The position numbers were made by a program, and so were the translations under genes. DNA of 63,230 bases, filler included, from Ministeria vibrans ATCC 50519 (lineage: Eukaryota > Protista > Filasterea): assembly GCA_943704425.1 (NCBI GenBank). It is 10 parts of 10 records of this genome, joined end to end, with 100 filler letters (N's around TTAATTAATTAA, not from the genome) between each part and the next. Parts side by side here need not be neighbours in the genome. Positions count along the whole stretch, not along the records: positions 60,809 to 63,230 come from CALSCP010001734.1; 9 more parts are not named here. The stretch is one strand, 5' to 3'. Positions 32,707 to 63,090 of the stretch are shown piece after piece. A model generated the notes under the pieces. It made no database searches. It had not been told where the DNA came from and worked only from the letters and a program-made list of their open reading frames with translations. Position 1 is the first letter of the stretch; each line of letters starts with the position of its first letter.

Positions 32707-33413
32707 ATGCTACGATTCCAATGTACCGAATGCAACGACTCTTGTGACGAGTCCTTTGATACCTACCGCTGTGGGAGATGTGCCGGTCCAATGCGCATTG
32801 CAGTCCAAGACGCATGGAAAGCCGCAAAGTTCCCAAAGTAAGCATAGTGCCAAAGTGTGTGACTGTGTATACTACAGCTTAGTTGACACCGCTCGCCTTC
32901 CAGAGACCTCATTGCGAGCCGTCCTGCCACGATGTGGCGGTACCGAGAGGCCTTGCACGTGCCACCCGGCGACGCAGTGACACTCGGAGAGGGAATGACT
33001 CCGTTGGTAGCGGCTGACTTTGGCGACGTCGGCTCCGTGCACTTCAAGCTGGACTATTGCAATCCAACGGGCTCCTGTACGACATTCGCTCCATTGGCGT
33101 TCTATATCTCATCCGAATTGTTGTTGTTGATGATGATGATGTTGTTGTTGTTGTGTGTGTCCTGTGTTGCAGACAAAGATCGAGGTGCGTCGGTGTTGAT
33201 GTCGCATCTACAGTGGATGGGCGGGCGATGCAGTCAGCCGCTCACGCAAGTGAAGGACGACTCGTCGGGCAATGCAGGAAGCGCGCTGGCCTGCTATGCC
33301 GCTCGCTGCAACATCCCGTGTGAAATATATACGCCATCGTGCACGTCGGAAGGGAAACTTTGCCAGGTACCGAAAGAGACGTGCACAAGAGGCGGATGAT
33401 AACAGGCAACATT

Positions 33414-33501
<88 letters not shown>

Positions 33502-34166
33502 TGCGGATGTACGGTGCGACCGTGAGACTGGTTGATGGTACTCGTGCAGACGCGACACGTGCGGTTACAGACGGACCCGGGGTGTACGCTTCGCACAACT
33601 GGCATCCGGTGTACATGGAGGGCGTGAAGACAATGGCATTTGAAGTGTGTGAACAGCTGGGATGGCGTGCGCCCGATGCCATTGTGCTCCCCGTTGGCTA
33701 CGGCAGCGTGCTACTTGGTCTTGCTCAAGGGTTTCGCGACCTCCGCGATGCCGGGGTGATTTCCGTTCTTCCGCGATTGCTTGGTGTTCAGTCAGCCGAG
33801 GTGTGTCCTGTGGCGCGAGCCATGGACGCAGGCGAGATCCAGTGCACGGCGATGAAGCAGCTGGGGCCGACGCTCGCGGAAGGAATTGCTGCAGAGGACC
33901 CTGTGCGAGGTCGTGAGATGCTAGTGGCCCTGCGCGAGTTCAATGGTGCGATGACAACCGCGACGTATGCCCAGATTCGTCAAGGACTTATTGACATTGG
34001 TCGTCTCGGCTTCTTTGTTGAGCCTACCTCCGCCATTGTTGCACACGGTCTGCGCCACTTTCGCACCACCGGTCACATTGCTCCTGAATCAACTGTCGTT
34101 GCCATTTTGACAGGTACCGGTCTCAAGGCAACCTCGAAAATTATGTCTGTCGTGAATGAAAAATAG
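32707..34166 (+). CDS. thrC: Prokaryote-type threonine synthase-like PLP enzyme with an N-terminal Zn ribbon (4 exons)
   Basis: CTEC..RCGRCAGPM, MWRYREAL, TLGEGMTPLV, NPTGS|YKDRG (PLP lysine), DDSSGNAG, YASHNWHP, PVGYGS, TLAEGI, VEPTSA and LTGTGLK. Introns at 32838-32903, 33077-33171 and 33367-33500. Confidence 0.85.
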
Positions 34167-38214: not shown

Positions 38215-40937
38215 ATGCGGAAAGTGTTTCGCCAAGTGCGATGGCTGTCTCCATCGTCGGCGCGTCGGCTGCTTCTATCGCCCAAGACACTTGCCTTCTG
38301 CTTGACTCTCCTGCTCTTGGTTGTCGTCAAAAACTCTCTCGTTCGCGCCGCCTACGGTCCCGAACGCGTCGGCACTGTCGCGTCACGCGAAGTAGACCTG
38401 GAGCTCTACGCGATGGCCGACTCCGACCTGCACGCCGACTATGGGTACGTTCACATATTCATCCTAATCATTTTTTGGCTGCGTGTGTTCCGTTGCACCT
38501 TTTCCAACGTGACATCGTCTCGCCTCCGCTTGCTCCCCTCTCTCTTTCGTGTGCGGTCCCTCTCTTGCCATAGGCATTGGTTAGGCATGTATGTTCTGTC
38601 GCTTCGTGTTTGTATTGCGCCTGTCTGTCAAACATACGTCGATCCGTTTTTTTTTTTTCAATACTAATTATAATTATTCCCTTTTTGACACGTCGCCGCA
38701 CTAGACTTCATCATGACTTGCCCCATTGCTACTGGGACGCATCGCCGTTGAAAATCGAGGAGACGCCGGCTCTCAGTAAGGCGCGGCTGGCGGCGCACTT
38801 TGCGCTTGTCATTGTGGTTGACTGTGCGACGGATGGAGTGGCGGCGTTGAATGCGACGCTCACGTCGATCGCGTCGGCGCAGTTCACCCACATCCATGGC
38901 TTCCCCGACCATGGCTTGGAGTTGATCTTTTCCGTCAATGCGGCCGTGGCGAACGGGGACGAGACGCCGACGCCCGCAACCGAAAGTTGTCTTGCTCTTG
39001 CGCGCGACTTTGACTTCTCCGCCTACGGCAACAAAAAGGTCCTGCTGTGGGATTGTCGCTTCGAATCGCGCATGCTCCATTGGATGCACGCCTGGCACCC
39101 CATTCCCATGGACAATATTATCTCGCACGAGGAGTGGACTAACGGCGCCTACACGAAACGCGCGTCCTTTGGTGATTCGCCCTCGCTCGAGTTTCTGCGA
39201 CGACACATCGCATCACGTTCACGGAGCGGCAGTAGTCGCCTTGTCGAAGACCTGCGCGGCGCGGACTTGTCTATTGACGAGATTATCGAAGATATGCCTG
39301 CCCACCAGCGCTCCATGGTCATGTCGGCAGGCATGCCAGCGGCGCTCATTCTTGACTCCGGCACTGTCTTTGGTCACCGGTTCCTGTTCTGGGCTCGCGA
39401 CGTCGTCTCCGAGTACCGCGGTGGCTTTCGTGGCCGCGATACCTTTGGTGGCATCTTCCGACCGACCATCGAAGCGTCGACCAATGTGGTACCCGAGGCG
39501 TTTGTCGTGCCCACTTCGCGTGACTGTCGCTTCTCTCGTGCCGAATTGCGTCGGCCCACCCCAGGTCATCTCAGTGAACTCTTGGTCTTTGCGCGGCCCT
39601 TTGCCACGATGCGTGAGCACATTGGCGAGCACATGAACAGTGTCATTGAGAAGGCCAACGACGGCGTGATGCGTCGCGTCTTTGGAGACCCTTGGCAACG
39701 TTCAACTCTCGCCTGGATCGCCGCTGAGTGTCACCGGCAAAACCTCTACTTGGTCTCGCCGTGCATGTCGCATGCCGGTTCGCTTGCCATGACCGTCTCA
39801 CAAGTGGACGCTAGCCCCCTCACGCCCCTGCCGACCGATCTTTACGGCAAGTCTCACGTCGACCAGACGCTGCAGGACCACAAGACATCGCTTGTGTTTG
39901 CCACGCTGCCTTGCCGCTATGAATGGGACGGGGCCCCACGCATGGAACTTTCACTTGCCGCAAAAGAGTCGCATACCAAGGAGGGATTTGTCGGCGTGCG
40001 CATGGTAAATGCCTCACAGGTGACGTCCACTCTCTCATGGCTTTGCCAGACGGCCAAGTTTGACAAGGTTCATCGTCACACTGTGCTGCTGGCACTCGAT
40101 GAGGACGCGTATGAATCGTTGCGTCACAACGCGTTTCATGTGCACGTCATTCCAGCGTTTGAGTCGCGCGACAATGCTCTCATTGAGCGCGCCATGGCCG
40201 CGAGCGACCTTCCCCCCGGCATTCTTCCCATGAATTCGGTGGCGTATCCTTACGAGCGCGCGCGCATCATGAACCTCCTCACCGAGATGCTCGCGTGTCA
40301 CGCCGACGTGTTTGTGCACAACGACAATGCACTCTGGCTTGACAACGTGTACAAATCTATGGCGGCGCCACCGCTTCAGATGCATGTTGTCGACGACGAG
40401 CTTGGCGAACATGATGTTGTGAATCGTGAGGTGGACTTAGTACTGCTTCGTCGCGACAATTTCACACACACCTACATGAAGAGGTGGGACGAAGATTTCT
40501 TTGTGGCGCGACACACGTCGCGCTCAGTCAACGTACTCTCGTGGGTGGCCCGCCGCTATTCGATGCTTGCCGACGAGTGGACCGCCTATCCGCACCACGC
40601 CAAGAACGAACGACCCATTTGGATTCGGCCCGTCTTTGCCGAGGTCCTCGCCGAGGGTCGCATTCCCTTCTACCTTATTGACAAGAACCAACTACCGACG
40701 GGCGTTCGTGTCAAGACATTCCACGCCAACGACGACAAATCGGGCCGTCGCCTGCGATACGAGGCGGACGAGCATTCGGTGACGTCGGCGAATGACTTTG
40801 ACAGTATCCCCAAGGACGCATCGATTCTCATGCTGCCGAACGAGACGCAGATGCTCTTCTCGCAGGTGTCTCGCTCCGGCATGCTCATTTGCAAGAAGCG
40901 TGTCGTTGCCGATTTTATCGCAGCCATTGGCGGGTAA
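38215..40937 (+). CDS. Type II membrane protein with two putative glycosyltransferase-like domains
   Basis: TM LAFCLTLLLLVVV in exon 1. Long exon 2 carries ALNATLTSIASAQF..LELIFSVN..WMHAWHP (GT-A/GT2-like) and VRMVNASQVTSTLSWLCQT..HTVLLALDEDAY..DVFVHNDNALWLDN (nucleotide-diphospho-sugar transferase/GT77-like). Confidence 0.55.
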
Positions 40938-43955: not shown

Positions 43956-44055
43956 NNNNNNNNNNNNNNNNNNNNNNNNNNNNNNNNNNNNNNNNNNNNT
44001 TAATTAATTAANNNNNNNNNNNNNNNNNNNNNNNNNNNNNNNNNNNNNNNNNNNN

Positions 44056-44193
<138 letters not shown>

Positions 44194-44196
44194 TAA

Positions 44197-44238
<42 letters not shown>

Positions 44239-44253
44239 CGCAACACCAACGTA

Positions 44254-46213
44254 CTCGGGAGGAAGGGAGACGTAAGAGAAACGAGGAAGACTGTCGGGAT
44301 TGCGGCACCAGGTCTCAAGGAGAGTTTCAGAGTCGGCGGCGGTGGAGGTGGGCCAGAGAAAAGCCTTGGGAAGTGTGCGTGGCTTCCACATGGGTACGTC
44401 GCTAGAAGGAACGAAAGGCTCGGGGGCAGTATCGATGTGCACGTCAGTCGTGAACATGGGCGGGTCGATCGGCGCACGAGGCTCGCGTGGCCTCGTCTGC
44501 CGGACAGGTTTGGGAGGTGCAATCTTTCCTGTGCGCTTGTTGACCTCGCCACGACGCCGCGGAATGCTCCAGTCGAGCTGAGACAAGAAGGGATCCTTGA
44601 CGAACCAAAAATTGTCGAATTGGCTCATACGACGGTCCTGGTCCACGATTTCGCGCACCCGTTTCCAAATGGCTGCATCCAGTTTGCTCACTTGATCCAG
44701 GTGATGATCGTGCACACGGTCGACCCACTTCCAGAAAGTATTACGCACCGGCAAGAACATGGAGCCCATCTCCATTGTGCCAAAGATAGACACGGGATGC
44801 GGAAGGTAGTTGCGGTACTGGAAGATGCCCTCAAAGTAGACGCGATGGGTGATGCCGACGTCGAGGGCACAGTAGTGGAGCAGCGACTGGCGACACTCGG
44901 AAATTCCGTGCATCGAGCCGTCCAAAAAGAGTTCTCTGTCCTCCTTCCCCATATCAATGTCGCAGTAGAAGTCGTACACCGCTAAGAAAAAGAGTAATAA
45001 TAGTTTTTTAAAAGCAAAAAAAATTAATAATAATAAATTATTATAATAAAATAATTATTATTACTAGTACTCTTATTATTAATAAAAAACGTCTAATTCA
45101 CGTTATTATCAGTGTTTCTTTGTACCTCTCAATGACGACAAGGAGCAGTGCCTCCACCAGGGTGTTTCGTTGTCCTCCTCTCTTGCCCAGGTCATATATT
45201 CGTCGACGGAGATGCGACCACGGTCCTCCCAGTTGGGCGACTCTTTGAAGAAGGCAGGACGCTGGCCCTCGCTAAGGCCATTGATGGTCATGTGCATGCT
45301 CATGGTGTCGAAAAAGCGCGTGCGATTGCCAAACATGCAGTACTCAGTGAGAATACGTGCGCGGTCGTAACCGACGTTGTGACCGATGATGAGCTGTGCG
45401 CGGTCCTCGGTGGAGAAAGGTACAAAGGGTTTCGCCCCAAAACGCGTGTAAGTGACATCCTCTTCTTGTAGCCACTCGGGAGAGTAACGCACAAAGCGTC
45501 GCACAATGCGGTCAATCTTGTCCTCGTCCGTTTCCCTCTGGAATGGCGCGCGTCGATGCCACCAAGTGGGATCGGGAGCGTACAGTGCCTGTTCAAAATC
45601 GGGATACTCGGAGTAATCTTCGGACGGATCGCACATGACGGCACGCAGCAGTCGCTCCGATTCGTAGGCACGTTCCGAGTCAATCTTGTGCGGCATGCCC
45701 ACGGCGATACCCTTGCGTTGTCTCAGTCGAGTGCCAGTCACGCGTGGCGCCCCCGACACATCTCGAAAATCATGCAGCCGTACGTTCTTCTCCCACTTCA
45801 CCTGCGCTCTGCGGTACTCAGGCGTGTCTTTTGGTCGTTCGCCCTTGAAGAAGGTACGCAGGTGTGCCTGTCGCTCTCTTTGAATCTTTGCCAGGGCACA
45901 ACAGTCGGCTTCAAGGAAATCGCAGCTGTCCACCTCGCCAGCAAACACTCCCCACTCACCTGGCTGCCACTTCCGATCGTCGGCATGCTGCAAGTATTCT
46001 TCGATCTTCTCCGCTTCGATATGAAATACGTTGGGGTACTCAAATGGCTCCATATCCGGATCGGTTGCCTAAGACAAAAATATCATTAATGTCTTTTTTT
46101 TCTTTTCTTATTCGGCTACTCCTCGTTTGGTCTTACCCCCGGCACAAGAGAGTCGCCCAAGCGAGTCGGGGGACGGACGTTCAAATTCCGTCGGTGCGCT
46201 CGTTGGAAATCTT
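44254..46213 (-). CDS. POLG: Mitochondrial DNA polymerase gamma, exonuclease region (internal fragment)
   Basis: ExoII LIIGHNVGYDRARI, RFFDTMSMHM..GLS..QR, SLSSL..VYDFYC, ExoIII LLHYCALDV.ITH.VY, PHPVS..G.MEMGSMFLP and DPFLSQLDWS. Confidence 0.9.
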
Positions 46214-46387: not shown

Positions 46388-47685
46388 TGCACTTCATCGC
46401 CTTGTTTGAATGGAGGCACGTGTGCCGAGGGAGGTATCAACGAGTTTTTGTGCACGTGTTCCACGGGGTACACGGGAAGTCGTTGCCAGGACGACATTGA
46501 CGAGTGTGACTCGTCTCCCTGTTCCAATGGGGCGTCGTGTCACCAAGGCATGTCGCCCGACCTGTACGTGTGCGTGTGTGCCGAAGGTTTCACTGGTGAT
46601 ATCTGTGAGTCAGATATGGATGAGTGTGTCTCATCACCATGTACCAATGGAGCGACCTGCGATGCTTCCGCGTCGCCTGGGATCCTGTCATGTATCTGTC
46701 CCGAAGGGTACAGTGGGGCTCTGTGTGAGACGTTGATCGATGTGTGCATCTCGTCGCCCTGTTCCAATGGCGCCAGATGCTCACTGACCGGTACCATTCC
46801 TGAGGGGTACGTTTGTGTCTGTGCTGAAGGCTACACGGGTGCCGATTGCGAGTCCGACATTAATGAGGTACGCATTATTATTATGATCGGTATTGTTATT
46901 ATAATAATAATATTATTATTTTTATTATTATTGTTATTGTTATTATTAGTAATAATAATTATTAATTTATTTTATTTTATTATTATTGTTATTGTTATTA
47001 TTAGTGTTAGTTATTATTTTTAATTTTATTATTGTTATTGTTATTGTTATTATTAGTATTAATAATAAAATTTTTATTATTGTTATTGTTATTGTTATTG
47101 TTATTATTAGTATTAATAATAATAATTATTATTTTTGTTGATTAATTATTTTGCTTTATATTCAGTGCGCTTCATCCCCGTGCTCGAACGGAGCTACTTG
47201 CACTGATATGGTGGCATATCCATCGTGTTCTTGTACTTCCGGATTCACCGGCACCCAATGCGAGTCGGACATAGACGAGTGTGCTTCATCACCATGTGCT
47301 AACGATGGCACCTGCTTCACGCAGGCAGTCAACGAATGGACATGCCTGTGTCGACCAGGTTTCAGTGGTATTGCATGCGAGACGAACATTGACGATTGTT
47401 CGTCTGATCCGTGTGCCAATGCGGGGACGTGTGTGGATGGCATTGCGTCGTACCAGTGTGACTGCGCAACGGGCTTTACAGGCTCAACCTGCGCCATAGA
47501 ACTCGCCGAGTGCATTAGCTTCCCGTGTCAGAACGATGCCACGTGCAATGAGAACGTCGGATTTTTTACATGTACTTGCAAAAGTGGGTACACTGGCGAC
47601 CTATGTGAGTCTGAAATTGATGAGGTACGAATAAATGTCTAGCTTTCATCTAAAAAATAAGTAGAATGATTGAAACATACATTAA

Positions 47686-47727
<42 letters not shown>

Positions 47728-48069
47728 TATTATTATTATTATTATTAACTCTTTCTCTAGTGTGCTTCGGTACCATGCGAGTATGGTGGAACTTGCATAG
47801 ACATGGTAAATGGCTACACATGCGCCTGTCCAGCAGGTACCTCTGGTGCGTCGTGTGAGACAGACGTCGACGAGTGTGCAAGTGGTCCTTGCGAGAATGG
47901 AAGCACTTGTGACACGTCGATGACCCTTGACTTGTTTACATGTTCATGTGGTGCGGGGTACACGGGCACGCTGTGCGAGACCAACATGGACGACTGCATT
48001 TCAAACACATGTGAGAACGGTGCGACTTGTGTTGACGGCGTTACATCGTTTACGTGCTCGTGCGCTAGC
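46388..48069 (+). CDS. Notch-like tandem Ca-binding EGF-repeat protein, internal fragment (exons 46388-46867, 47166-47624, 47761-48069)
   Basis: About 11 repeats of DEC.SSPC.NG.TC...Y.C.C..G(Y/F)TG..CE. Introns fall at the DE|C boundary. Confidence 0.9.
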
Positions 48070-48169
48070 NNNNNNNNNNNNNNNNNNNNNNNNNNNNNNN
48101 NNNNNNNNNNNNNTTAATTAATTAANNNNNNNNNNNNNNNNNNNNNNNNNNNNNNNNNNNNNNNNNNNN

Positions 48170-50894
<2,725 letters not shown>

Positions 50895-51276
50895 CACAAG
50901 TGGAACATTATCAATATACATATATATAAATCAGAGTCATAATATTTTTTTTTTTTGGAGAATCAGTAAGTGGGTTGTATTGTTCTTCTTCTTTTAATTG
51001 TGCATGTTGGGTTCTTTGAAGGTTCCTTTGAGTCACTTCAGGATGAACTCAGGCAATGTAAGATTAGGAGTCATTCAGGCTGCGTATACCGTGCAAAGGC
51101 CAAGGATATGTTCGCCGCATGAGCCATTGTGAAAGAACAGCTCTTTCTTCGTATTATAATCTTGAAATTGTTTTGTCATCGGAGTCTTTATCAAGAATAT
51201 AAACACCGAATTTCATTAATTAATAATAACTAATTAATAATAATAATTATTATTATATTCTTTCCTGTCGCCAGGA

Positions 51277-54200
51277 ATGCTTCTTCGAGCGGCAGTCGTC
51301 CTGCTACTTCTTGCCGGTCGCAGCAGGAGTGTCGAGGTTGCCTCGGTTGGCTCAAGTGGGCCTGACGACCGCGATCTGCTCGTGCGCGGCGAACAGATCA
51401 ACATTGTTGCGTCGCTCGTAGTGAACAACGTCACGCTTGAGGACCATATCCTTGCGTACGTGGCAACAGCGTATCCGTGTCTGTCGATGCCGTGCGAAAA
51501 CAACGGCGTTTGTTCCGTGGGTGCGTCGGGTGATGCGTTTTTGTGCAGTTGCGCGTCGGGATTTACGGGCGCGACGTGCGCCGTCTGGCTGGCACCGTGC
51601 GACAGCTCGCCGTGCGCCAATGGTGCAACGTGTACGCTGTCACCTGGTGGTGGCGGCGGTGGGTTTGCGTGCGAGTGTTCTGAAGAGTATTTTGGGGCGT
51701 TGTGCGCGGAGGAAGTGTCGTGCATGAGCTCACCCTGCGGCGGAGGGGCCACTTGCGTGCTGGCGGGGTCTGGGAGTGCGTTTACATGTGTGTGTCCTGT
51801 TGGTGCTACAGGCACGACGTGCGAGAAGATTGACGAGTGCGGGTCATCGCCGTGCCAGAATGGCGGAGTGTGCACTGACGGAGCGAGTGCGTTTGTGTGT
51901 TCGTGTGCGGCTGGTTTCACTGGCGCCGAGTGTGAGTTGGACGAGGACGAGTGCGGGTCGTCGCCGTGCCAGAATGGCGGAGTGTGCACCGACGGAGCGA
52001 GTGCGTTTGTGTGTTCGTGTGCGGCTGGTTTCACTGGCGCCGAGTGTGAGTCGGACGAGGACGAGTGCGGGTCGTCGCCGTGCCAGAATGGCGGAGTGTG
52101 CACCGACGGAACGAGTGCGTTTGTGTGTTCGTGTGCGGCTGGTTTCACTGGCGCCGAGTGTGAGTCGGACGAGGACGAGTGCGGGTCGTCGCCGTGCCGG
52201 AATGGCGGTGGGTGCATGGACGGTGTGAACGGATATCTTTGTTTGTGCGTCAGTGGGTACACGGGCACGCTGTGCGAAAGCGAGATTGACGAGTGTGCGT
52301 CGTCGCCGTGTGCGCATGGAGGATTGTGCGTTGACTTGGTGATTGGGTCAGTTCTGTGCGATTGTCCGGGGGGAACGTCCGGGTTGAGGTGCGAGACGGA
52401 CCTGGACGAGTGTTCGTCGTCACCGTGCGAGCATGGCGGAGTGTGCGAAGATTTGGTGTCTTCATTCTTATGTTCTTGTGCGAGCGGATACACCGGGACA
52501 GTGTGCGAGAGCAATGTTGACGAGTGTGCGTCGTCTCCATGCTCGAACGGAGGAGTGTGCGACGACTTTGTGGGTTCATTCTTATGTTCTTGTGCGAGCG
52601 GATACACGGGGACAGNNNNNNNNGCGAGAGCAATGTTGACGAGTGTGCGTCGTCTCCATGCTCGAACGGAGGAGTGTGCGACGACTTTGTGGGTTCATTC
52701 TTATGTTCTTGTGCGAGCGGATACACGGGGACAGTGTGCGAGAGCGACATTGACGAGTGCGCATCGTCGCCGTGTCAGAATGGCGGTGCGTGCAGTGACA
52801 CGATTGACGGATTTACGTGTTTGTGCGCGAGCGGATACACGGGAACAGTGTGCGAGAGCAATGTCGACGAGTGTGCGTCGTCTCCGTGCTCGAACGGAGG
52901 AGTGTGCGACGACTTTGTGGGTTCGTTTGGGTGCTCTTGTGCGAGCGGATACACGGGGACCGTGTGCGAGAGCGACATTGACGAGTGCGCATCGTCTCCG
53001 TGCCAAAATGGCGGTACGTGCAGCGACGCCATCAGCGGGTTTGTTTGTTTGTGCGCGAGCGGATACACGGGCACGGTGTGCGAGAGCGATATCGACGAGT
53101 GTGCGTCATCTCCGTGTGCACATGGGGGAGCCTGCCTTGGCTTGATTGGGTCATTTTTGTGCAAATGTCCGGCGGGAACGTCTGGGTTGAGGTGCGAGAC
53201 GAACTTTGATGAGTGTTTGTCGTCTCCATGTGCGCATGGAGGAGTGTGCGAAGATTTGGTGTCGTCATTCTTATGTTCTTGTGCGAGCGGATACACGGGG
53301 ACACTGTGCGAGAGCGAGATTAATGAGTGTGCATCGTCTCCGTGCCAGAATGCCGGTGCGTGCAGCGACGCTGTAAACAGATTTACATGTTCGTGCGCGA
53401 GCGGATACACGGGGACGCTGTGCGAGAGCGACATTGACGAGTGCGCGTCGTCTCCGTGCTCGAACGGAGGAGTGTGCGACGACTTTGTGGGTTCGTTTGG
53501 GTGCTCTTGTGCGAGTGGATACACGGGCACAGTGTGCGAGAACAATATTGACGAGTGCGCATCGTCGCCGTGTCAGAATGGCGGTGGGTGTCTCGACACG
53601 ATCGACGGATTTACGTGTTCGTGTGTGAGCGGATTCACGGGCACAGTGTGCGACAGTGATGTTGATGAGTGTGCATCGTCTCCCTGTCAGAATGGCGGTG
53701 GGTGTCTCGACACGATCGACGGATTTACGTGTTTGTGCGTGAGCGGATTCACGGGCACAGTGTGCGAGAGCGACATTGACGAGTGTGCGTCGACTCCGTG
53801 CCAGAATGGCGGACAATGCGTTGATGGTCTTGGGCAGGTGGTGTGCGAGTGTGGGGGGACGGGATTTGTGGGGAGCACGTGCAACGAGCCTGATGTGTGT
53901 GTGTCTTCACCTTGCCAGAATGGAGGAGAGTGTGTCAACCAGTTTCCTGCCGGACTGGTGTGTGACTGTCAGCAGACAGGTTACACTGGACTGCGTTGCG
54001 AGACTGAGATTGATGAGTGTGCCTCGAGTCCGTGTGTGAATGAAGGCACGTGTGTGAATGGCGTGCTGAGCTATTCGTGTTTGTGTCTGCCAGCATTCAA
54101 TGGGACCAACTGCGAGGAGTATCCGCTCTATCCACGTGTGTTTCACTCACTCTCGAACAACAATACGCGCGCTGATGACCTGGTGATTCTTGGGTCACAT

Positions 54201-56079
54201 GTGTATCTTGTGGGCAGCGCAGAAGGCCCAGTGAATGGTGCGATCGGGAATGGGGACCTCGACATTTTGGTGGTGAAAATTGACATTGCAACGGGAGTTG
54301 AAGTGTGGACACGACTGATCGGGAGTGCGCATCGTGACGAGGCATTTGGGGCAGTGGGAATTGAGCCTGATCAACTCTTTGTCGTTGGTCTGACGTACGG
54401 GAGTCTTGCTGGCCCCATTGCAGAATTGACTTTGTCCAATCCAGTCCGTCTGAAAAACATGCTTAACAATAGCCCCATGATTAATAATTGTTCTCTTATT
54501 TGTGCGTAGTTGATTTTGCAAGTGAAACCGAGCGATGGTTCACTTGTCTGGTTTGACGAATCAGGTTCCTCCGACGGTTCTGATCGTTATGTGTCTCTTG
54601 TTGCGACTTCAACTCCCGTATTGGTTGTTATGGTATGATAGAGAGAAAGAAGGAAACAGAGAAAGAGAGAGAGAAAGAGAGAAAGAAGGAAAGAGAGAAA
54701 GAAAGAAAGAAAGAGAGAAAGAGAGAAAGAGAGAAGGAGAGAAAGAGAGAAAAAAAAAAGAAATTAGAGAGAATCAAATTGAAAGAGAAAGGAGAAGCAA
54801 AGTGAGAGAGAAACTCAAGCATTTTTTATTTTCCAATTATTATTAGGGCTGGAGCACCACCGCCGCCACTCCCTCTTCAGACCTTATCGATCCTTCTTCC
54901 TCCCTGACCAATTCCTTTCACACGGTGGGCACGACTATTACCCATTTTACGCCCAACGGCACTCGCCTTCTCTCTCCTTGGATGCTCTGGACGGCGCAAA
55001 CATCGGACACATATTGCAAAGGTGAGATGGATGTGGATGTATGTATGTTTGTATATATGTGTATTGTGTGAAGAGGGAGAAAGAAACAAGGAAATTGACA
55101 AAAAGATTGTGTTTGACTGGTCTCTCGCGAGTTTTAGGCGCCAGTGTGTCGTATGACGATCAAATTGATCGTGTGCTTCTCGCTGGAAACTTTTTGGGAG
55201 ATTTAGAGTTGAAAGAAGCCGATTCGCAGACTGCATTTTACACATCGTTTGATCCACTGCTCATCAACTCGTTTGATAGCATTAGCGTATCGCCGTTCAT
55301 CAGGGGAGCGAGTACGAACAACAAAAAATGAATTAACAATAATAATTAATTCGTATTATTACTTTGCCTCCGTCCTCTCAGCGGAAGTGACCAGCTCCGT
55401 TTCAAACGGCACTCACTGGTACATTGCTGGCTTTACCTTTGGCATGCTTGGCTCGTCTGATAGCGATGTTTTCCAGCCGAACGATCACGAAGAAGCCAGG
55501 TTTCTCATTCAAGTCCCGCATACTAGTGAGATTGACACATTCATATTCAATTCATTCAGTATGTTCATCCTTTATTGTTTGTTTTTTTGTTTGTTTTGCC
55601 GAGCAGCTACTCAGGGGACTATTGCGCGACTGGAGCCAGGAAGTGTCTTTCGCGATGCCATAGACCGCATTGCCGTTGCCAATGACCAGGTGGTTGTTGC
55701 CGCAGAGTTTTCGAGCAGTTTTGCCCTTGTGCAGACCTTGTCCGTTGAAGAAAGAGATTTGGATGGGTTTCCTCCTTGGTCGTTCTACCCCGACGAAACA
55801 ACTGTAGCTACGGAGCTCCCCATTCCTAGCGCAGCTCAAGTGCTTCCATTTGTACATCCGGATTATGTCACTCATCCACCACAGCCAACGACAGGCATGG
55901 CCCATCTTGACACAACTCAGCCGCAATTTGCACACTTGCATCGCGAGGGCACACATGCACTCATGGTCTGTACCACTGTGCCCCTTGTCAACCCGTTTGG
56001 TCTTCAACATGTACCAACTGTCACTACCAATGCTCTTCTCACGGTTGCCTATTCTCCGTTTCTCGTACCAAACTTGTAA
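51277..56079 (+). CDS. Secreted EGF array (about 22 repeats) plus SBBP-like propeller protein, paralog B
   Basis: Signal peptide MLLRAAVVLLLLAG, an intronless EGF array (the frame break at N gap 52616 is artefactual), GDLDILVVKIDIATGVEVWTRLIGSAHRDEAFGAVG..LFVVGLTYGSLAG, and an exon layout parallel to paralog A. Stop at 56079. Confidence 0.85.
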
Positions 56080-58534: not shown

Positions 58535-60205
58535 ATGATTCCGGAGCCCGTTGAAGAATTTAGCTGTTCGGACTTTGGTAGGCAGGCGAGTAGAGTGGAG
58601 TGGAGTGCAAGTGTGAGAGAGACCAGTCGAGAAAATGATTATCGGGACGAATAAGAATTCCGCGCTCGACCCTGCTCTGACTCTCTGCTCCTCTTTTGAC
58701 TCTTCGCTTTTGACTTTCGTCTCGCTCCAGATGCAATGTATTCAAAGGCCTCCAACAAGGGACAGCTGTCAGCCAGAGAGATAGTGCATCTGTGCGAGGG
58801 GGTAAAGTCCCTGTTGATTATGGAGACGAACATTCCCAACGTCGACGCTCCTGTCACAATCTGCGGCGACCTGCATGGGCAGTTTTACGACTTTCAGCAG
58901 AAGATTCTTGTGAAGGGGAACTGTGACACATTTGACTTGGTACGGTGTTATAATTATTATTTTTAAAAACAATACGTTATTCTCTTGTTTCATGTACCCA
59001 TTAGTAATAATTATTGTTTCAACATACATTAACTTTTAAGGCTTATTTCTTTGCAATTTTCTTATAATAAACATAGTTTATTTATCGTATTAGTTGGAAA
59101 TACCTTTTTAATGTTGTTTTTTTGTTTCGATAGGGCCCGGGGAATTGGCTGTTCCTTGGAGATTACGTTGATCGTGGATATTACTCCGTCGAAACAGTTG
59201 TGTTGTTGCTACTCTTAAAGGTAATAGTTATACGACTCTTCATATTATAATAATTGTTAAGGTCATAACGTGTCTCTCACTAATGAGTACCGCAACATAG
59301 ATGCGTCACCCTAACCGTGTCACAATTCTTCGTGGCAACCATGAATGTCGTCAGGTCTCACAGACGTATGGTTTTTACGACCAGGTTCTGCGGGACTACG
59401 GCTCGGCACTTGTCTGGCGCTCTCTCACCGATCTTTTTGACTACTTGCCAATTGCTGCACTTGTCGCGGACCAAGTAATACCAAAATATTGCAATAATAT
59501 ATAATAATAATTATTATTATAATAATATGACGTGTCTTCTCATCTATACATCTTTCATGTAGATTTATTGTCTTCACGGAGGTCTCTCACCAGCACTTCC
59601 CACCCTTGATGGTGTTCGTGCGCTTGATCGCATTCAGGTAACCAAACAAGCTAAAGGCCAAAAAAAAGACAATAATATATGATGTGATGCAAAACTCACA
59701 TTTCGCTCCCCCTCTTCTCTCCTTTCTCCCTTACCTCCACCACCACTGCTCTATCATTTGTTGGGTAGGAAATTCCACACGAAGGAGCACTGTGTGATGT
59801 CATGTGGGCAGATCCGGACGAGCGAGTGGGATTTAATGTTTCGCCGCGCAATGCTGGTTACACGTTTGGTGAGGACGTGACGGAAAAGTTCATCTACGAC
59901 AATGGACTCGCGACCATTGCGCGCGCTCACCAGCTGGTAATGGCAGGCTATAATTGGACACACAAAAATCAAGTGTTGACAATTTTCTCGGCACCCAACT
60001 ACTGTTACCGCTGTGGAAATGAGGGAGGTGCGGATAAAAGATGGAGGGATCGGAGCTGAATTGTTGATTAATGCCTTTTGCTTGATTTTTAGCCAAAGTG
60101 CAACTTGACGCTTCGCTCAACCCAGATTACCTCAATTTCAGCGCTGTTCCTACACAGGATCGAAAAGTGCCTCAAACTATTATGACAAGTCAGTACTTCC
60201 TGTAG
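58535..60205 (+). CDS. Divergent PP2A-type Ser/Thr phosphatase catalytic subunit (7 exons)
   Basis: [61 protein letters not shown] and C-terminal YFL*. Confidence 0.93.
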
Positions 60206-60312
60206 CATTATGAAAAAGAATTTTTTAATTACATTGTAAGAAAATTGAGCGTGAAACAACATGATAATAATTAGTAAACGGAGGGAATAATTAGTAAACG
60301 GAGGGGGGGGGC

Positions 60313-60708
60313 TTAAGCACCGTCATCTGTGCTTTCCATAGGCAGGGATGCAAGAGTTTCTCGAATTTTGGCAATGTGAGGGTGTGTGGGAGGGAGAGAA
60401 ATGGTGAAGATGCGGTCTGCTCGCAAGAAGAACTCACGCGCTTTGACAAAGTCATTTTGGGCTTGGTACAGATACCCAATATTAAAACACGTTTCACCGG
60501 TGGATGAGTGGTCGAGACCAAGTGACTTCTGACGGATGGTCAGCGCACGCTCATAGTACTCAAGAGCACGACTGTTGTCTCCTTGTGCCTTGAACACACC
60601 AGCCATGTTGTTCAATGTCTGGCCTGTGGATGAGTGATCGAGACCAACAGACTTCTCATAGATGATCAGAGCACGCTCATAGTACTCAAGAGCACGACTG
60701 TATTCTCC
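60313..60708 (-). CDS. 3' end of a 42-aa TPR-repeat (KLC/nephrocystin-3-type) protein
   Basis: RALEYYERAL.I..KS.GLDHSSTG.T..N repeated, ending LPPTHPHI. 5' truncated. Confidence 0.85.
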   Translation of the reverse strand, partial: GEYSRALEYYERALIIYEKSVGLDHSSTGQTLNNMAGVFKAQGDNSRALEYYERALTIRQKSLGLDHSSTGETCFNIGYLYQAQNDFVKAREFFLRADRIFTISLPPTHPHIAKIRETLASLPMESTDDGA

Positions 60709-60871
60709 NNNNNNNNNNNNNNNNNNNNNNNNNNNNNNNNNNNNNNNNNNNNTTAATTAATTAANNNNNNNNNNNNNNNNNNNNNNNNNNNNNNNNNNNN
60801 NNNNNNNNGGCAGAGACGGAGACGGCGGCAAAGAGAGGGAGAGGAATTTATATTTTATATTATTAATAATA

Positions 60872-60908
<37 letters not shown>

Positions 60909-60925
60909 ATGACTTCTACGTTTAG

Positions 60926-62317
60926 AACGTTGTGGACATGTCATTTATGTTTTCTTCCGCGGCAGTATTCAACTCTGAGCTCTTTTTCAACACTTCTGTA
61001 TGGCATACTCGCAGTAATTTTTTTTCATCTCGGTGTGGTTGTTAGAGTTGAAAAACCATGTTTCAACCAGAACTTAATGATAACCCATACCCTTTTTCTA
61101 TTATTATGTATTATTGACATTCATTGAGATTGAACTGTCGTTCGTCTTTGTAGAAAACTACAACAATGTCGCGCATGTTCCAGCTCTGTCCTCGTTTTAA
61201 TCAACCCCTCTTATTTGACACTACTGTAAGATCTGGATTGTTGTATGGGTGATAGAAAAAGTCCTTTCATGATCATTCCTCTTTACTGTAAAGCGAGTGA
61301 CGGATATGGCTTACATGTTTTACTCTGCCTCGACGTTCAACCAGCAGCTGAACTTTAAAACTGAAGTATGAAAAACAATTATACTTCTTCTTTATTATTA
61401 ATAATACTCATCATTGTAGCAAGTCACGGATATGTCCTTCATGTTTCATTCTGCGTCGTCTTACAACATGCCAATCGTGTTCAATTCGTCGGTGAGAAAT
61501 ATGTCTTATGATTCTTTGGCAGGGCTCAAATCTGAGAATGGATGGCATATTTCTAGAGTGTGTTGACGACAACGCACATGTTTTTCGCTGCAAGCCAGTT
61601 CAATTCACCTCTTTCACTTGACACTCGAGTAAGTATCTTTCATTGGTGTGCATGTACATACGAATAATAATAATGACATTAAATATTATTATTAATTTAT
61701 AATTTTAATTAATTAATTAATAATAATAGTTATTATTATTATTATTATTATTATTTTTCATTCCAAATATATTCTTGGTTGTTGTACCTAGAGCGTCACT
61801 GACATGTCGCGGATGTTTCAATCTGCCCTGAAGTTCAACCAGCCTTGTAACTTCGATACTTCCGTAAGAATAATATTTAGAAGAAGAGATAGCTATAAAA
61901 AAACTGTGAAACTTAATAATTATTCGTTTCACAGTTTTTTTTGGTACTAATGAAAATAATTATTTTCAAATAATTAGAGTGTGGGTAACTTTGACTATAT
62001 GTTCTGGGAAGCGCAAGATTTCAATCAGCCTCTGCTATGGAACACATCAGTACGCTTCTTGTCTGAGAAGAACATCGGGATTAATTTTTATTTATACGTG
62101 CTTAGCAAGCCGTGACAATGGTGTCGATGTTTTTCGTCGCTAGCTCTTTCAATCAAGAGTGAGAAAAATCTATATCGAAAAAGAATTGTATTGAAAATCC
62201 CTCTTTCATAGTTTGAGTGGCTGGTGTGTTAGTTCGATCCCTACGCAACCAAGCGGTTTTGACAGCTCAGCCTCTGCCTGGAGTCTGCCACGTCCTGTTT
62301 GGGGAACGTGCCCCTAA
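60926..62317 (+). CDS. DUF285/BspA-type surface-repeat protein, one 24-aa repeat per 72-nt exon (5' truncated)
   Basis: Exons 60926-60997, 61154-61225, 61294-61365, 61420-61491, 61557-61628, 61792-61863 and 61978-62049 are each AG|72 nt|GT with consensus .VTDM..MF.SA..FNQPL.F.T. Then 62106-62158 and 62212-62317 end QDLSGWCVSSIPTQPSGFD...PVWGTCP*. Confidence 0.88.
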
Positions 62318-62816: not shown

Positions 62817-63090
62817 AAGAAGAAGAAGAATACAACCCTCCTGCAACCCATTTATTAATGATACAGTCACCACGCGAAGACACAGCCAGACCGCCTTGCA
62901 AACTCAAGTACTCAACCGATGAACTGAAACTTTAGAGGTATCAGGTAACATGGGAGAACAGTGGCAGGTCGACAGGTCAGAGTGCTGTGTCGTCGCTATG
63001 CAATCGCAATGGTACTCCATACCCCCAGTGAGGGCTTAGGGCTCTGACACAAAATAGAGAAAAGAGAGCTGTACTCAATGTCAAAACCAA
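62817..63090 (-). mobile_element. Longest, mutated copy of the dispersed repeat family
   Basis: (aag)n tacaaccc..caacccatttattaatgatacagtcacc...agggcttagggctctgaca..gagagctgtactcaatgtcaaaacc, with small internal duplications. Confidence 0.9.

What the first reader, a model, noticed from the sequence alone, without database searches (positions are those of the whole stretch)
60926..62317. Bacterial-type DUF285 surface protein rebuilt as a cassette of symmetric 72-nt, one-repeat exons
Seen: seven consecutive exons are each exactly 72 nt, phase 0-0, and each encodes one 24-aa repeat (NVVDMSFMFSSAAVFNSELFFNTS; KTTTMSRMFQLCPRFNQPLLFDTT; RVTDMAYMFYSASTFNQQLNFKTE; and so on). The introns look unrelated to each other. 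The gene ends in a DLSGWCV...PVWGTCP cap and is invisible to the ORF track. Known: DUF285/BspA-like repeats are solenoid surface repeats, mostly bacterial but also in large DNA viruses and some protists. One-repeat-per-exon architecture with shuffling is described for brown-algal LRR/TPR candidate receptors. Inference: a horizontally acquired solenoid gained one intron and then expanded. Any exon can be skipped, duplicated or swapped without a frameshift, so this is a candidate variable recognition or adhesion system in a unicellular opisthokont.
Basis: partly seen in the sequence, partly recalled or inferred. Interest (0 to 1): 0.78.

Follow-up and report, generated by a model that had tools for sequence, protein, structure and literature searches.

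The report
Bacterial-type repeat gene, one-repeat exons
A single-celled eukaryote, likely a relative of animals and fungi, splices a gene for a DUF285 repeat protein (a family known mostly from bacteria, viruses and algae) from 72-base exons that each encode exactly one repeat, likely a horizontally acquired gene expanded long ago by exon duplication, with no sign so far of the exon shuffling that would make it a variable receptor.

Summary
Seven AG-72 nt-GT phase-0 exons each encode one 24-residue DUF285/PARCEL repeat; a 53-nt exon and a cap exon follow. Spliced contigs from three studies join exons 1-6 exactly, with no letter differences, and run 1.1-1.2 kb further upstream, through at least one more repeat, into an assembly gap. 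An intronless phage protein with the same 24-residue units and cap is predicted as an LRR-class solenoid. The cap is widespread in prokaryotes and viruses, but its tree names no donor. The 'variable receptor' reading is not supported so far: no skipped form, no second copy at 90% or more, no orphan or inverted exons in 63 kb, exons at most 64% alike, and no membrane anchor or signalling domain in the visible 220 residues. Best reading: a domesticated, probably acquired solenoid whose array grew by exon duplication long ago and is now spliced in one main form. The layout is known for LRR and TPR genes; my searches found no report of it for DUF285. New variant of a known kind; interest moderate.

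The parts
60709..60808 (.). Assembly gap (44 N, 12-nt spacer, 44 N); the 5' part of the gene lies in or beyond it
   Evidence: transcript contigs carry 1122 and 1169 nt upstream of 60926
60809..60925 (+). 3' part of an intron (donor not visible); AT microsatellite, ends in AG
   Evidence: X7 and X11 contigs leave the window at 60926 and continue with the end of another repeat in the same phase (table 7)
60926..60997 (+). Exon 1 (visible), 72 nt, phase 0-0, one 24-aa repeat
   Evidence: (PF03382 E 0.02)
61154..61225 (+). Exon 2, 72 nt, phase 0-0
   Evidence: (E 0.024)
61294..61365 (+). Exon 3, 72 nt, phase 0-0
   Evidence: (E 2.9e-4)
61420..61491 (+). Exon 4, 72 nt, phase 0-0
   Evidence: (E 0.0059)
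61557..61628 (+). Exon 5, 72 nt, phase 0-0
   Evidence: no Pfam hit alone; 30 bits with a one-unit profile
61792..61863 (+). Exon 6, 72 nt, phase 0-0
   Evidence: E 1.4e-4; its first 30 nt are the loose end behind exon 5 in three runs
61978..62049 (+). Exon 7, 72 nt, phase 0-0
62106..62158 (+). Exon 8, 53 nt, phase 0-2, last partial repeat
   Evidence: junctions predicted
62212..62317 (+). Terminal exon: C-terminal cap (LSGWCV...PRPVWGTCP) and stop
   Evidence: junction predicted

Best explanation
This is the spliced 3' part of a DUF285/PARCEL repeat gene in which each 72-base exon encodes one 24-residue repeat, predicted to form an LRR-like solenoid with a conserved end cap, likely acquired horizontally, likely expanded long ago by duplicating an exon-plus-intron unit, and likely spliced today as one main form. 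Shown: exon layout, splicing of exons 1-6, family, repeat length. Inferred steps: (1) an intronless gene of the 24-residue type with this cap came in from a bacterium, virus or alga; (2) an intron settled between '[DN]Tx' and 'xVTDM', and unequal crossing-over between neighbouring introns multiplied whole units without breaking the frame; (3) exons then drifted to 36-64% identity and introns lost resemblance, leaving too little homology for further easy exchange, so the array is now largely fixed; (4) the protein most likely works as a rigid binding rod, secreted or held by its unseen N-terminus, whose variable positions give one fixed binding surface, for example for adhesion or for contact with bacterial prey.
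For: Layout. Splicing: (3 of 4 runs, 3 studies, no other letters, one spliced form). Family: (201 bits against a profile of 44 foreign 24-aa units). Fold: stand-in L163 at pLDDT 96.2, Z 16.5, rmsd 2.9 over 226 residues to an NLR LRR domain, Z 14.8 to TpLRR. Intronless precedents with 24-aa units plus this cap: L163, partly L183 and P0142. Cap in 1043 cluster representatives, 319 of 363 GTDB stretches, 169 of 214 viral stretches. Age: 116 of 188 same-residue codon pairs differ; longest word shared by two exons is 11 nt, against 54 nt in the intronless L163 array; only 11 of 211 canonical arrays have a closest unit pair as distant as here. Punctate spread and HGT are the family's described habit (PMC2996958). 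The host builds other arrays from symmetric exons too (EGF gene).
Against: No donor could be placed: 0 of 68 branches reached 95 support, and two of the three collections searched for the cap hold no eukaryotes by design. The N-terminal 1.1-1.2 kb is unseen, so secretion is not shown. The fold is from a stand-in, not this protein. Contigs drop rare isoforms, so one form is not proof of constitutive splicing. No genome, so copy number is untested beyond a 90% identity cut. The DNA control run laid nothing. 7 of 36 intron pairs scored above 95% of single-base shuffles; I ascribe this to shared AT microsatellites but did not test it with a stricter null. The unit-identity comparison used a rough pattern, and longer arrays reach higher maxima.
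Confidence: 0.62

Rival explanations
1. A diversifying recognition system like brown-algal ROCO-LRR and NB-ARC-TPR genes: exons are skipped, duplicated or swapped within and between paralogs to vary binding.
For: Every 72-nt exon is frame-neutral; unit positions 10, 11, 13, 14 and 20 show 5-7 different residues around a fixed core; LRR-class fold of the stand-in; the unseen 5' part may hold many more exons.
Against: No skipping joint and no second contig family at 90% or more in three runs; identical letters in runs of 2011, 2018 and 2025 (they may be one strain). No orphan, broken or antisense repeat among 2153 open segments of the window. No recent twin exons. No signalling domain at the C-terminus. 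Brown-algal loci show non-coding and opposite-strand exons and recent positive selection (PMC3341825).
Confidence: 0.15
2. The repeats were already there when the gene arrived, and one intron was later copied from repeat to repeat (intron transfer or gene conversion) rather than exons being duplicated.
For: Intronless relatives already carry 7-9 such units before the cap (L163). Each exon's best foreign match (13-17 of 24 residues) is about as close as or closer than its best sister exon (at most 14 of 24).
Against: That comparison is best-of-thousands against best-of-six. The exon ends share no proto-splice consensus. Serial intron copying into all eight sites is a rarer process than tandem exon duplication (established knowledge, recalled).
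Confidence: 0.12
3. An intracellular solenoid (scaffold or inhibitor), not a surface protein.
For: No transmembrane or GPI-like tail in the visible part (max 19-residue hydropathy 1.13). DUF285 arrays also occur in viral proteins named as E3 ligase or kinase and in the apparently unanchored P0175 and P0176.
Against: Many family members carry signal peptides or membrane-targeting sequences (PMC2996958; 10.1101/2023.03.21.533155). The cap has two invariant cysteines in 5 of 5 aligned sequences, which suggests a disulfide. Three N-x-S/T sequons occur, though they follow from the family consensus.
Confidence: 0.2
4. Vertical inheritance from an old eukaryotic DUF285 lineage rather than a horizontal gain.
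For: DUF285 is present in diatoms, green algae, pelagophytes and dinoflagellates; the nearest Atlas clusters for exon 7 are mostly eukaryotic; some 24-aa arrays look eukaryotic (P0209, P0235).
Against: Best cap matches (67-76%) come from prokaryote genomes, viral contigs and unnamed metagenome records. Distribution is described as punctate.
Confidence: 0.12

Closest known systems
DUF285 / PARCEL repeat proteins (PF03382; Roske et al. 2010, PMC2996958; abstract, background, first results section and passages read)
   Same: Same xVTDMxxMFxxAxxFNQ core, variable sequence from unit to unit, tandem tract; Pfam hits on 6 of 7 exons.
   Different: Units are 24, not the canonical 25 residues (2393 of 3007 spacings in fetched homologs are 25); no dyad symmetry in any of 7 exons; split by introns (the paper's main text has no 'intron', 'exon' or 'splic'); host is outside the algal groups it lists.
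Phage and giant-virus DUF285 proteins (L163 ORF between a tail-fibre-like gene and a tail sheath gene; Vibrio phage vB_VpaM_sm033; Aureococcus virus proteins)
   Same: L163 has a run of 24-aa units followed by the same cap; sm033 cap is 67.6% identical; structural neighbours in BFVD.
   Different: Intronless, with much more similar units (54-nt shared word); not shown to be the donor.
Brown-algal ROCO-LRR and NB-ARC-TPR genes (PMC3341825, PMC11378527; passages read)
   Same: One repeat per exon; ROCO LRR exons are also 72 bp; frame-neutral cassettes; LRR-class fold.
   Different: Those exons are phase 2 (PMC11378527), belong to multigene families with GTPase or NB-ARC domains, and show spare and inverted exons, splice variants and positive selection. 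None of that was found here. The repeat family differs.
BspA / TpLRR repeats (PF13306; family definition recalled)
   Same: NCBI names many DUF285 proteins 'BspA family leucine-rich repeat surface protein'; TpLRR is a structural neighbour of the stand-in (Z 14.8).
   Different: Different repeat consensus; no piece of this gene hit that family. The BspA label is a naming habit, not shown membership.

Membership tests
DUF285/PARCEL (PF03382) | Sequence match to the repeat model | tested here: met
   6 of 7 exons hit PF03382 as their only family (15-22 bits each, below the 25-bit cut-off singly); the joined protein scores 201 bits on a home-built unit profile; Atlas top hits are DUF285 at 0.95. 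The joined protein was not scored against Pfam itself.
DUF285/PARCEL (PF03382) | Tandem canonical 25-residue units | tested here: not met
   Period is 24 throughout. The paper allows non-canonical units, and other 24-aa arrays pass the Pfam cut-off widely, so this marks a variant, not exclusion.
DUF285/PARCEL (PF03382) | Dyad symmetry of the coding unit | tested here: not met
   0 of 7 exons beat shuffles (lowest fraction 0.13); a simple local-alignment test, not the paper's method.
DUF285/PARCEL (PF03382) | Membrane-targeting or secretion signal (many, not all, members) | tested here: inconclusive
   None in the visible C-terminal 220 aa; the N-terminus lies in the gap.
DUF285/PARCEL (PF03382) | Solenoid fold | tested here: inconclusive
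   Met for the stand-in L163; the protein itself was not folded.
Brown-algal-type shuffling receptors | One repeat per frame-neutral exon of equal length | tested here: met
Brown-algal-type shuffling receptors | Spare, broken or opposite-strand exons at the locus | tested here: not met
   8 units in the six frames of 63 kb, all in the gene; next best E 0.47. Holds for the visible part only.
Brown-algal-type shuffling receptors | Alternative splicing of repeat exons | tested here: inconclusive
   No skipping joint in 3 runs; one 185-nt contig at depth 4.6 covers intron 1 unspliced. Contigs drop rare forms.
Brown-algal-type shuffling receptors | Multigene family with recent duplicates and exon exchange | tested here: inconclusive
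   No second copy at 90% or more laid; no twin exons; no genome to scan.
Brown-algal-type shuffling receptors | Linked signalling domain (ROC-COR, NB-ARC, kinase) | tested here: inconclusive
   None at the C-terminus (gene ends at the cap); at most about 390 codons upstream are unseen.
Brown-algal-type shuffling receptors | Positive selection on exposed positions | not tested
   Seven exons with 62% of synonymous-capable codon pairs differing are too few and too diverged.
BspA/TpLRR (PF13306) | TpLRR repeat consensus | tested here: not met
   No hit among 8 pieces at E up to 1; the sequence shows the DUF285 consensus instead.

The most novel reading that the evidence does not exclude
A close unicellular relative of animals has taken a mobile bacterial or viral repeat family and turned it into an exon-cassette receptor family: many DUF285 loci and 15 or more cassettes per gene, varied by skipping and exchange, give a recognition repertoire for bacterial prey or viruses that arose independently of LRR, TPR and Ig systems.
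Probability: 0.15. Interest if true: 0.8.

Novelty: new variant of a known kind. Interest (0 to 1): 0.42.

Why it matters
It is a clean case of a normally intronless, mobile repeat family fully domesticated by an intron-rich eukaryote, with the intron pattern recording how the array grew. It extends DUF285, abundant in ocean transcriptomes and of unknown function (10.1101/2024.06.08.598090, passages read), to a probable non-photosynthetic opisthokont that appears in repeated sequencing runs and may be in culture, where knock-down and tagging could give the family a function. If a paralog family with exon exchange turned up, it would be a new recognition repertoire near the origin of animals; the present data do not show that.

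Tried and rejected
No whole genome is held, so the paralog count was not possible. One search listed no holder on record as RNA; spliced contigs were inferred from the joints. The intended DNA control X1 laid nothing, which is no evidence. The gene's own protein was not among the listed hits, so the N-terminus could not be recovered. Scans for other intron-split DUF285 genes: donor-side pattern, 0 matches in JGI metagenomes and 0 in IMG/VR (1 match in the window as positive control); acceptor-side pattern, 56 metagenome loci, none with a chain of repeat exons, about ten being intronless arrays with an in-frame stop or at a contig edge and the rest chance. These collections hold few protist genomes, so this is weak. 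Cap tree: the 70 best-scoring of 490 distinct caps plus the query, 79 columns, quick method, unresolved. PDB by sequence: no DUF285 structure (2 weak unrelated hits); Foldseek on PDB gave nothing at E 0.001. NCBIfam: only weak hits of 2 of 8 pieces to a PARCEL lipoprotein model. Rfam: 0 matches in the window. Earlier findings by place, sequence and DUF285 words: nothing. Rejected: chance AG/GT placement; pseudogene (open frame, spliced in three studies); contaminant contig (spliceosomal introns of the same style as neighbours, and the host's dispersed repeat lies at 62844 on the same contig piece). Not-in-print searches: DUF285; 40 of 54 listed; PF03382; 9 of 10; DUF285 + intron; 5 of 6; most were seen as listings only, the library lacks most subscription papers, and no supplements were read (those of PMC2996958 and the pelagophyte preprint list DUF285 taxa and may bear on the claim).

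Full report
Observation. The region was read directly and parsed. Seven exons of exactly 72 nt, bounded by AG and GT and open in frame 0, lie at 60926, 61154, 61294, 61420, 61557, 61792 and 61978. Of 450 AG-72-GT pairs on both strands of the window, only these seven carry the repeat motif. A 53-nt exon (62106-62158) begins at the same repeat position and a terminal exon (62212-62317) encodes the cap. Joined by coordinates, they give 220 residues with a period of exactly 24. Introns are 53-163 nt and 17-38% G+C, against 40-49% in the 72-nt exons. An assembly gap lies 117 nt upstream of the first visible exon, and no genome is held.

Splicing. One search listed 17 runs: six hold 58-100% of the words, and a second group holds 22-35%, close to the 0.3 that exon-only words would give by my hand arithmetic. 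Four runs were laid on 60915-61685. X7 and X11 each have one contig (1858 and 1887 nt) that skips introns 1-4 at GT..AG; X13 skips introns 1-3 and its loose end is the start of exon 5; all three continue behind exon 5 with the start of exon 6. No other letters, no indels and no skipping joints were seen. One short low-depth contig in X7 covers intron 1 unspliced. X1, meant as a DNA control, laid nothing. Upstream of 60926 the X7 and X11 contigs continue for 1122 and 1169 nt, and their last 30 letters encode the end of one more repeat in the same phase. The visible part is therefore roughly the last 220 of at most about 610 residues. The tool marks these runs as RNA only by guess; a processed DNA copy is not formally excluded.

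Family. Six of seven exons hit PF03382 as their only Pfam family, each below the cut-off alone; exon 7's nearest Atlas clusters are DUF285; all 120 listed profile hits (of 359) carry PF03382. The unit is one residue shorter than the canonical 25: 2393 of 3007 spacings in 275 fetched proteins are 25 and 250 are 24; 9 of 277 proteins have three or more 24-aa units in this register. The cap matches 1043 cluster representatives, 319 of 363 candidate stretches in prokaryote genomes of many phyla, 169 of 214 in viral contigs and 45 phage records. Of 542 caps examined, the clearest with a 24-aa array in front is an intronless phage ORF, L163, between a tail-fibre-like gene and a tail sheath gene. Folded as a stand-in with a 38-row alignment it reaches pLDDT 96.2 and resembles LRR solenoids (Z 16.5, rmsd 2.9 over 226 residues; TpLRR Z 14.8; repeats inflate Z). 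No DUF285 structure is solved by sequence search. The 'BspA' label comes from NCBI names; the TpLRR/BspA repeat itself was not matched.

Host and origin. The window encodes a DNA polymerase gamma exonuclease domain (PF18136), which I recall as essentially opisthokont, and its Sin3 is closest to EukProt 'Opistho-2' and then fishes at 54-57%. A unicellular opisthokont is likely; I did not place it further. The contig piece belongs to the host: it carries the same dispersed repeat found six more times in the window. A tree of the last 79 columns (70 best of 490 distinct caps plus the query) is unresolved, with best identity 67%. Horizontal origin rests on the family's described punctate spread (PMC2996958), on its flux between a giant virus and its algal host (10.1101/2024.10.30.620910; PMC10720644) and on where the best caps were found. 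An algal or viral donor is as open as a bacterial one.

How the layout arose. Eight acceptors sit at the same repeat position. The neighbouring phosphatase gene has exons of 43-259 nt with mixed phases (4 of 6 introns phase 0), so phase 0 alone is unremarkable here but the fixed position is not. Duplication of an exon-plus-intron unit is the simplest cause. It is old: exons are 36-64% identical in DNA and 29-58% in protein; 116 of 188 same-residue codon pairs differ; the longest word shared by two exons is 11 nt, against 54 nt in L163; and only 11 of 211 canonical arrays, and 3 of 12 short-unit arrays, lack a closer unit pair (rough unit calling). Introns show no convincing homology: 7 of 36 pairs exceed 95% of single-base shuffles, the one strong score joining two introns rich in AT microsatellite. 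The habit is not special to this gene: an EGF gene in the window has phase 0-0 exons of four repeats each, while the adjacent TPR fragment has three repeats in one exon. Three unnamed, eukaryote-looking DUF285 proteins have an in-frame insert resembling a read-through intron at a different repeat position (inference).

Is it a variable receptor? The hallmarks reported for brown algae are spare, broken and opposite-strand exons, recent duplicates, splice variants, positive selection and a signalling domain (PMC3341825; PMC11378527). Here a one-unit profile finds exactly eight units among 2153 open segments of the window, all in the gene; three runs show one spliced form with identical letters and no second copy at 90% or more; the protein ends at the cap with no hydrophobic tail. 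These tests are limited: contigs drop rare forms, the runs may be one strain, and the 5' part and the rest of the genome are unseen. The variable-receptor reading stays open at about 0.15. Unit positions 10, 11, 13, 14 and 20 vary most, which fits a binding face but is expected of any old array.

Function. The family has no established activity. A Lactococcus protein with DUF285 plus MucBP and Ig-like domains aids adhesion, without the DUF285 part being singled out (PMC5071367); mycoplasma members are mostly predicted lipoproteins or secreted (10.1101/2023.03.21.533155); algal members respond to cold, low light or nitrate limitation. A secreted or N-terminally anchored binding rod is my best guess; an intracellular role is the main rival.

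Novelty. One repeat per exon is known for LRR and TPR genes of brown algae and animals, and 105 earlier scan notes share such words (unchecked). For DUF285 I found no description of exon structure or of an opisthokont member in the searches, mostly seen as listings, with no supplements read. Pattern scans found no second intron-split DUF285 gene in collections poor in protists. Papers were read as passages, except PMC2996958 (abstract, background, first results section and passages). Verdict: real, expressed, a new variant of a known kind; interest 0.42.

Noticed in passing
window 1807, 37898, 41083, 41196, 42087, 57378, 62844: Seven identical copies of a 34-nt core, extending to 70 nt or more in some, next to AT or AAG microsatellites. 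Read on the other strand it holds an AATAAA followed by a simple-repeat tail, like the 3' end of a 5'-truncated retroelement (inference). No Rfam match.
   Followed up: partly
window 60313-60708 (- strand): 3' fragment of a TPR_12 (kinesin-light-chain-like) repeat gene, three repeats in one exon, cut by the same gap; it would lie head to head with the DUF285 gene if the scaffold join is right.
   Followed up: partly
window 46388-56079: Two or more tandem genes with long EGF-repeat arrays followed by similar unannotated C-terminal regions; one has phase 0-0 exons of four EGF repeats, another has arrays of 9-13 or more repeats without introns.
   Followed up: partly
window 44008-46068 (- strand): DNA polymerase gamma exonuclease domain (PF18136) in two frames, used as a lineage marker.
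   Followed up: partly
window 58535-60206: Complete seven-exon serine/threonine phosphatase gene of the PP2A/PP4/PP6 type by its motifs (family name recalled), with an unusual acidic N-terminus.
   Followed up: partly
window 38574-40937 and 2714-4252: Long single open frames (787 and 512 aa) with no Pfam hit; the first looks like an intron-poor membrane-anchored enzyme.
   Followed up: no
window 33324-34166: PLP-dependent enzyme (PF00291) resembling a threonine synthase, possibly of bacterial type (inference).
   Followed up: no
L163:1300-3150; L164, L169, L182, L187, L188, L205: Capped DUF285 proteins in phages: one between tail genes, and six loci on one 340-kb viral contig. Possible virion or receptor-binding role.
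   Followed up: partly
P0209, P0235, P0276: 24-aa-type DUF285 proteins with a 46-47-residue in-frame insert that looks like a read-through intron at another repeat position.
   Followed up: no
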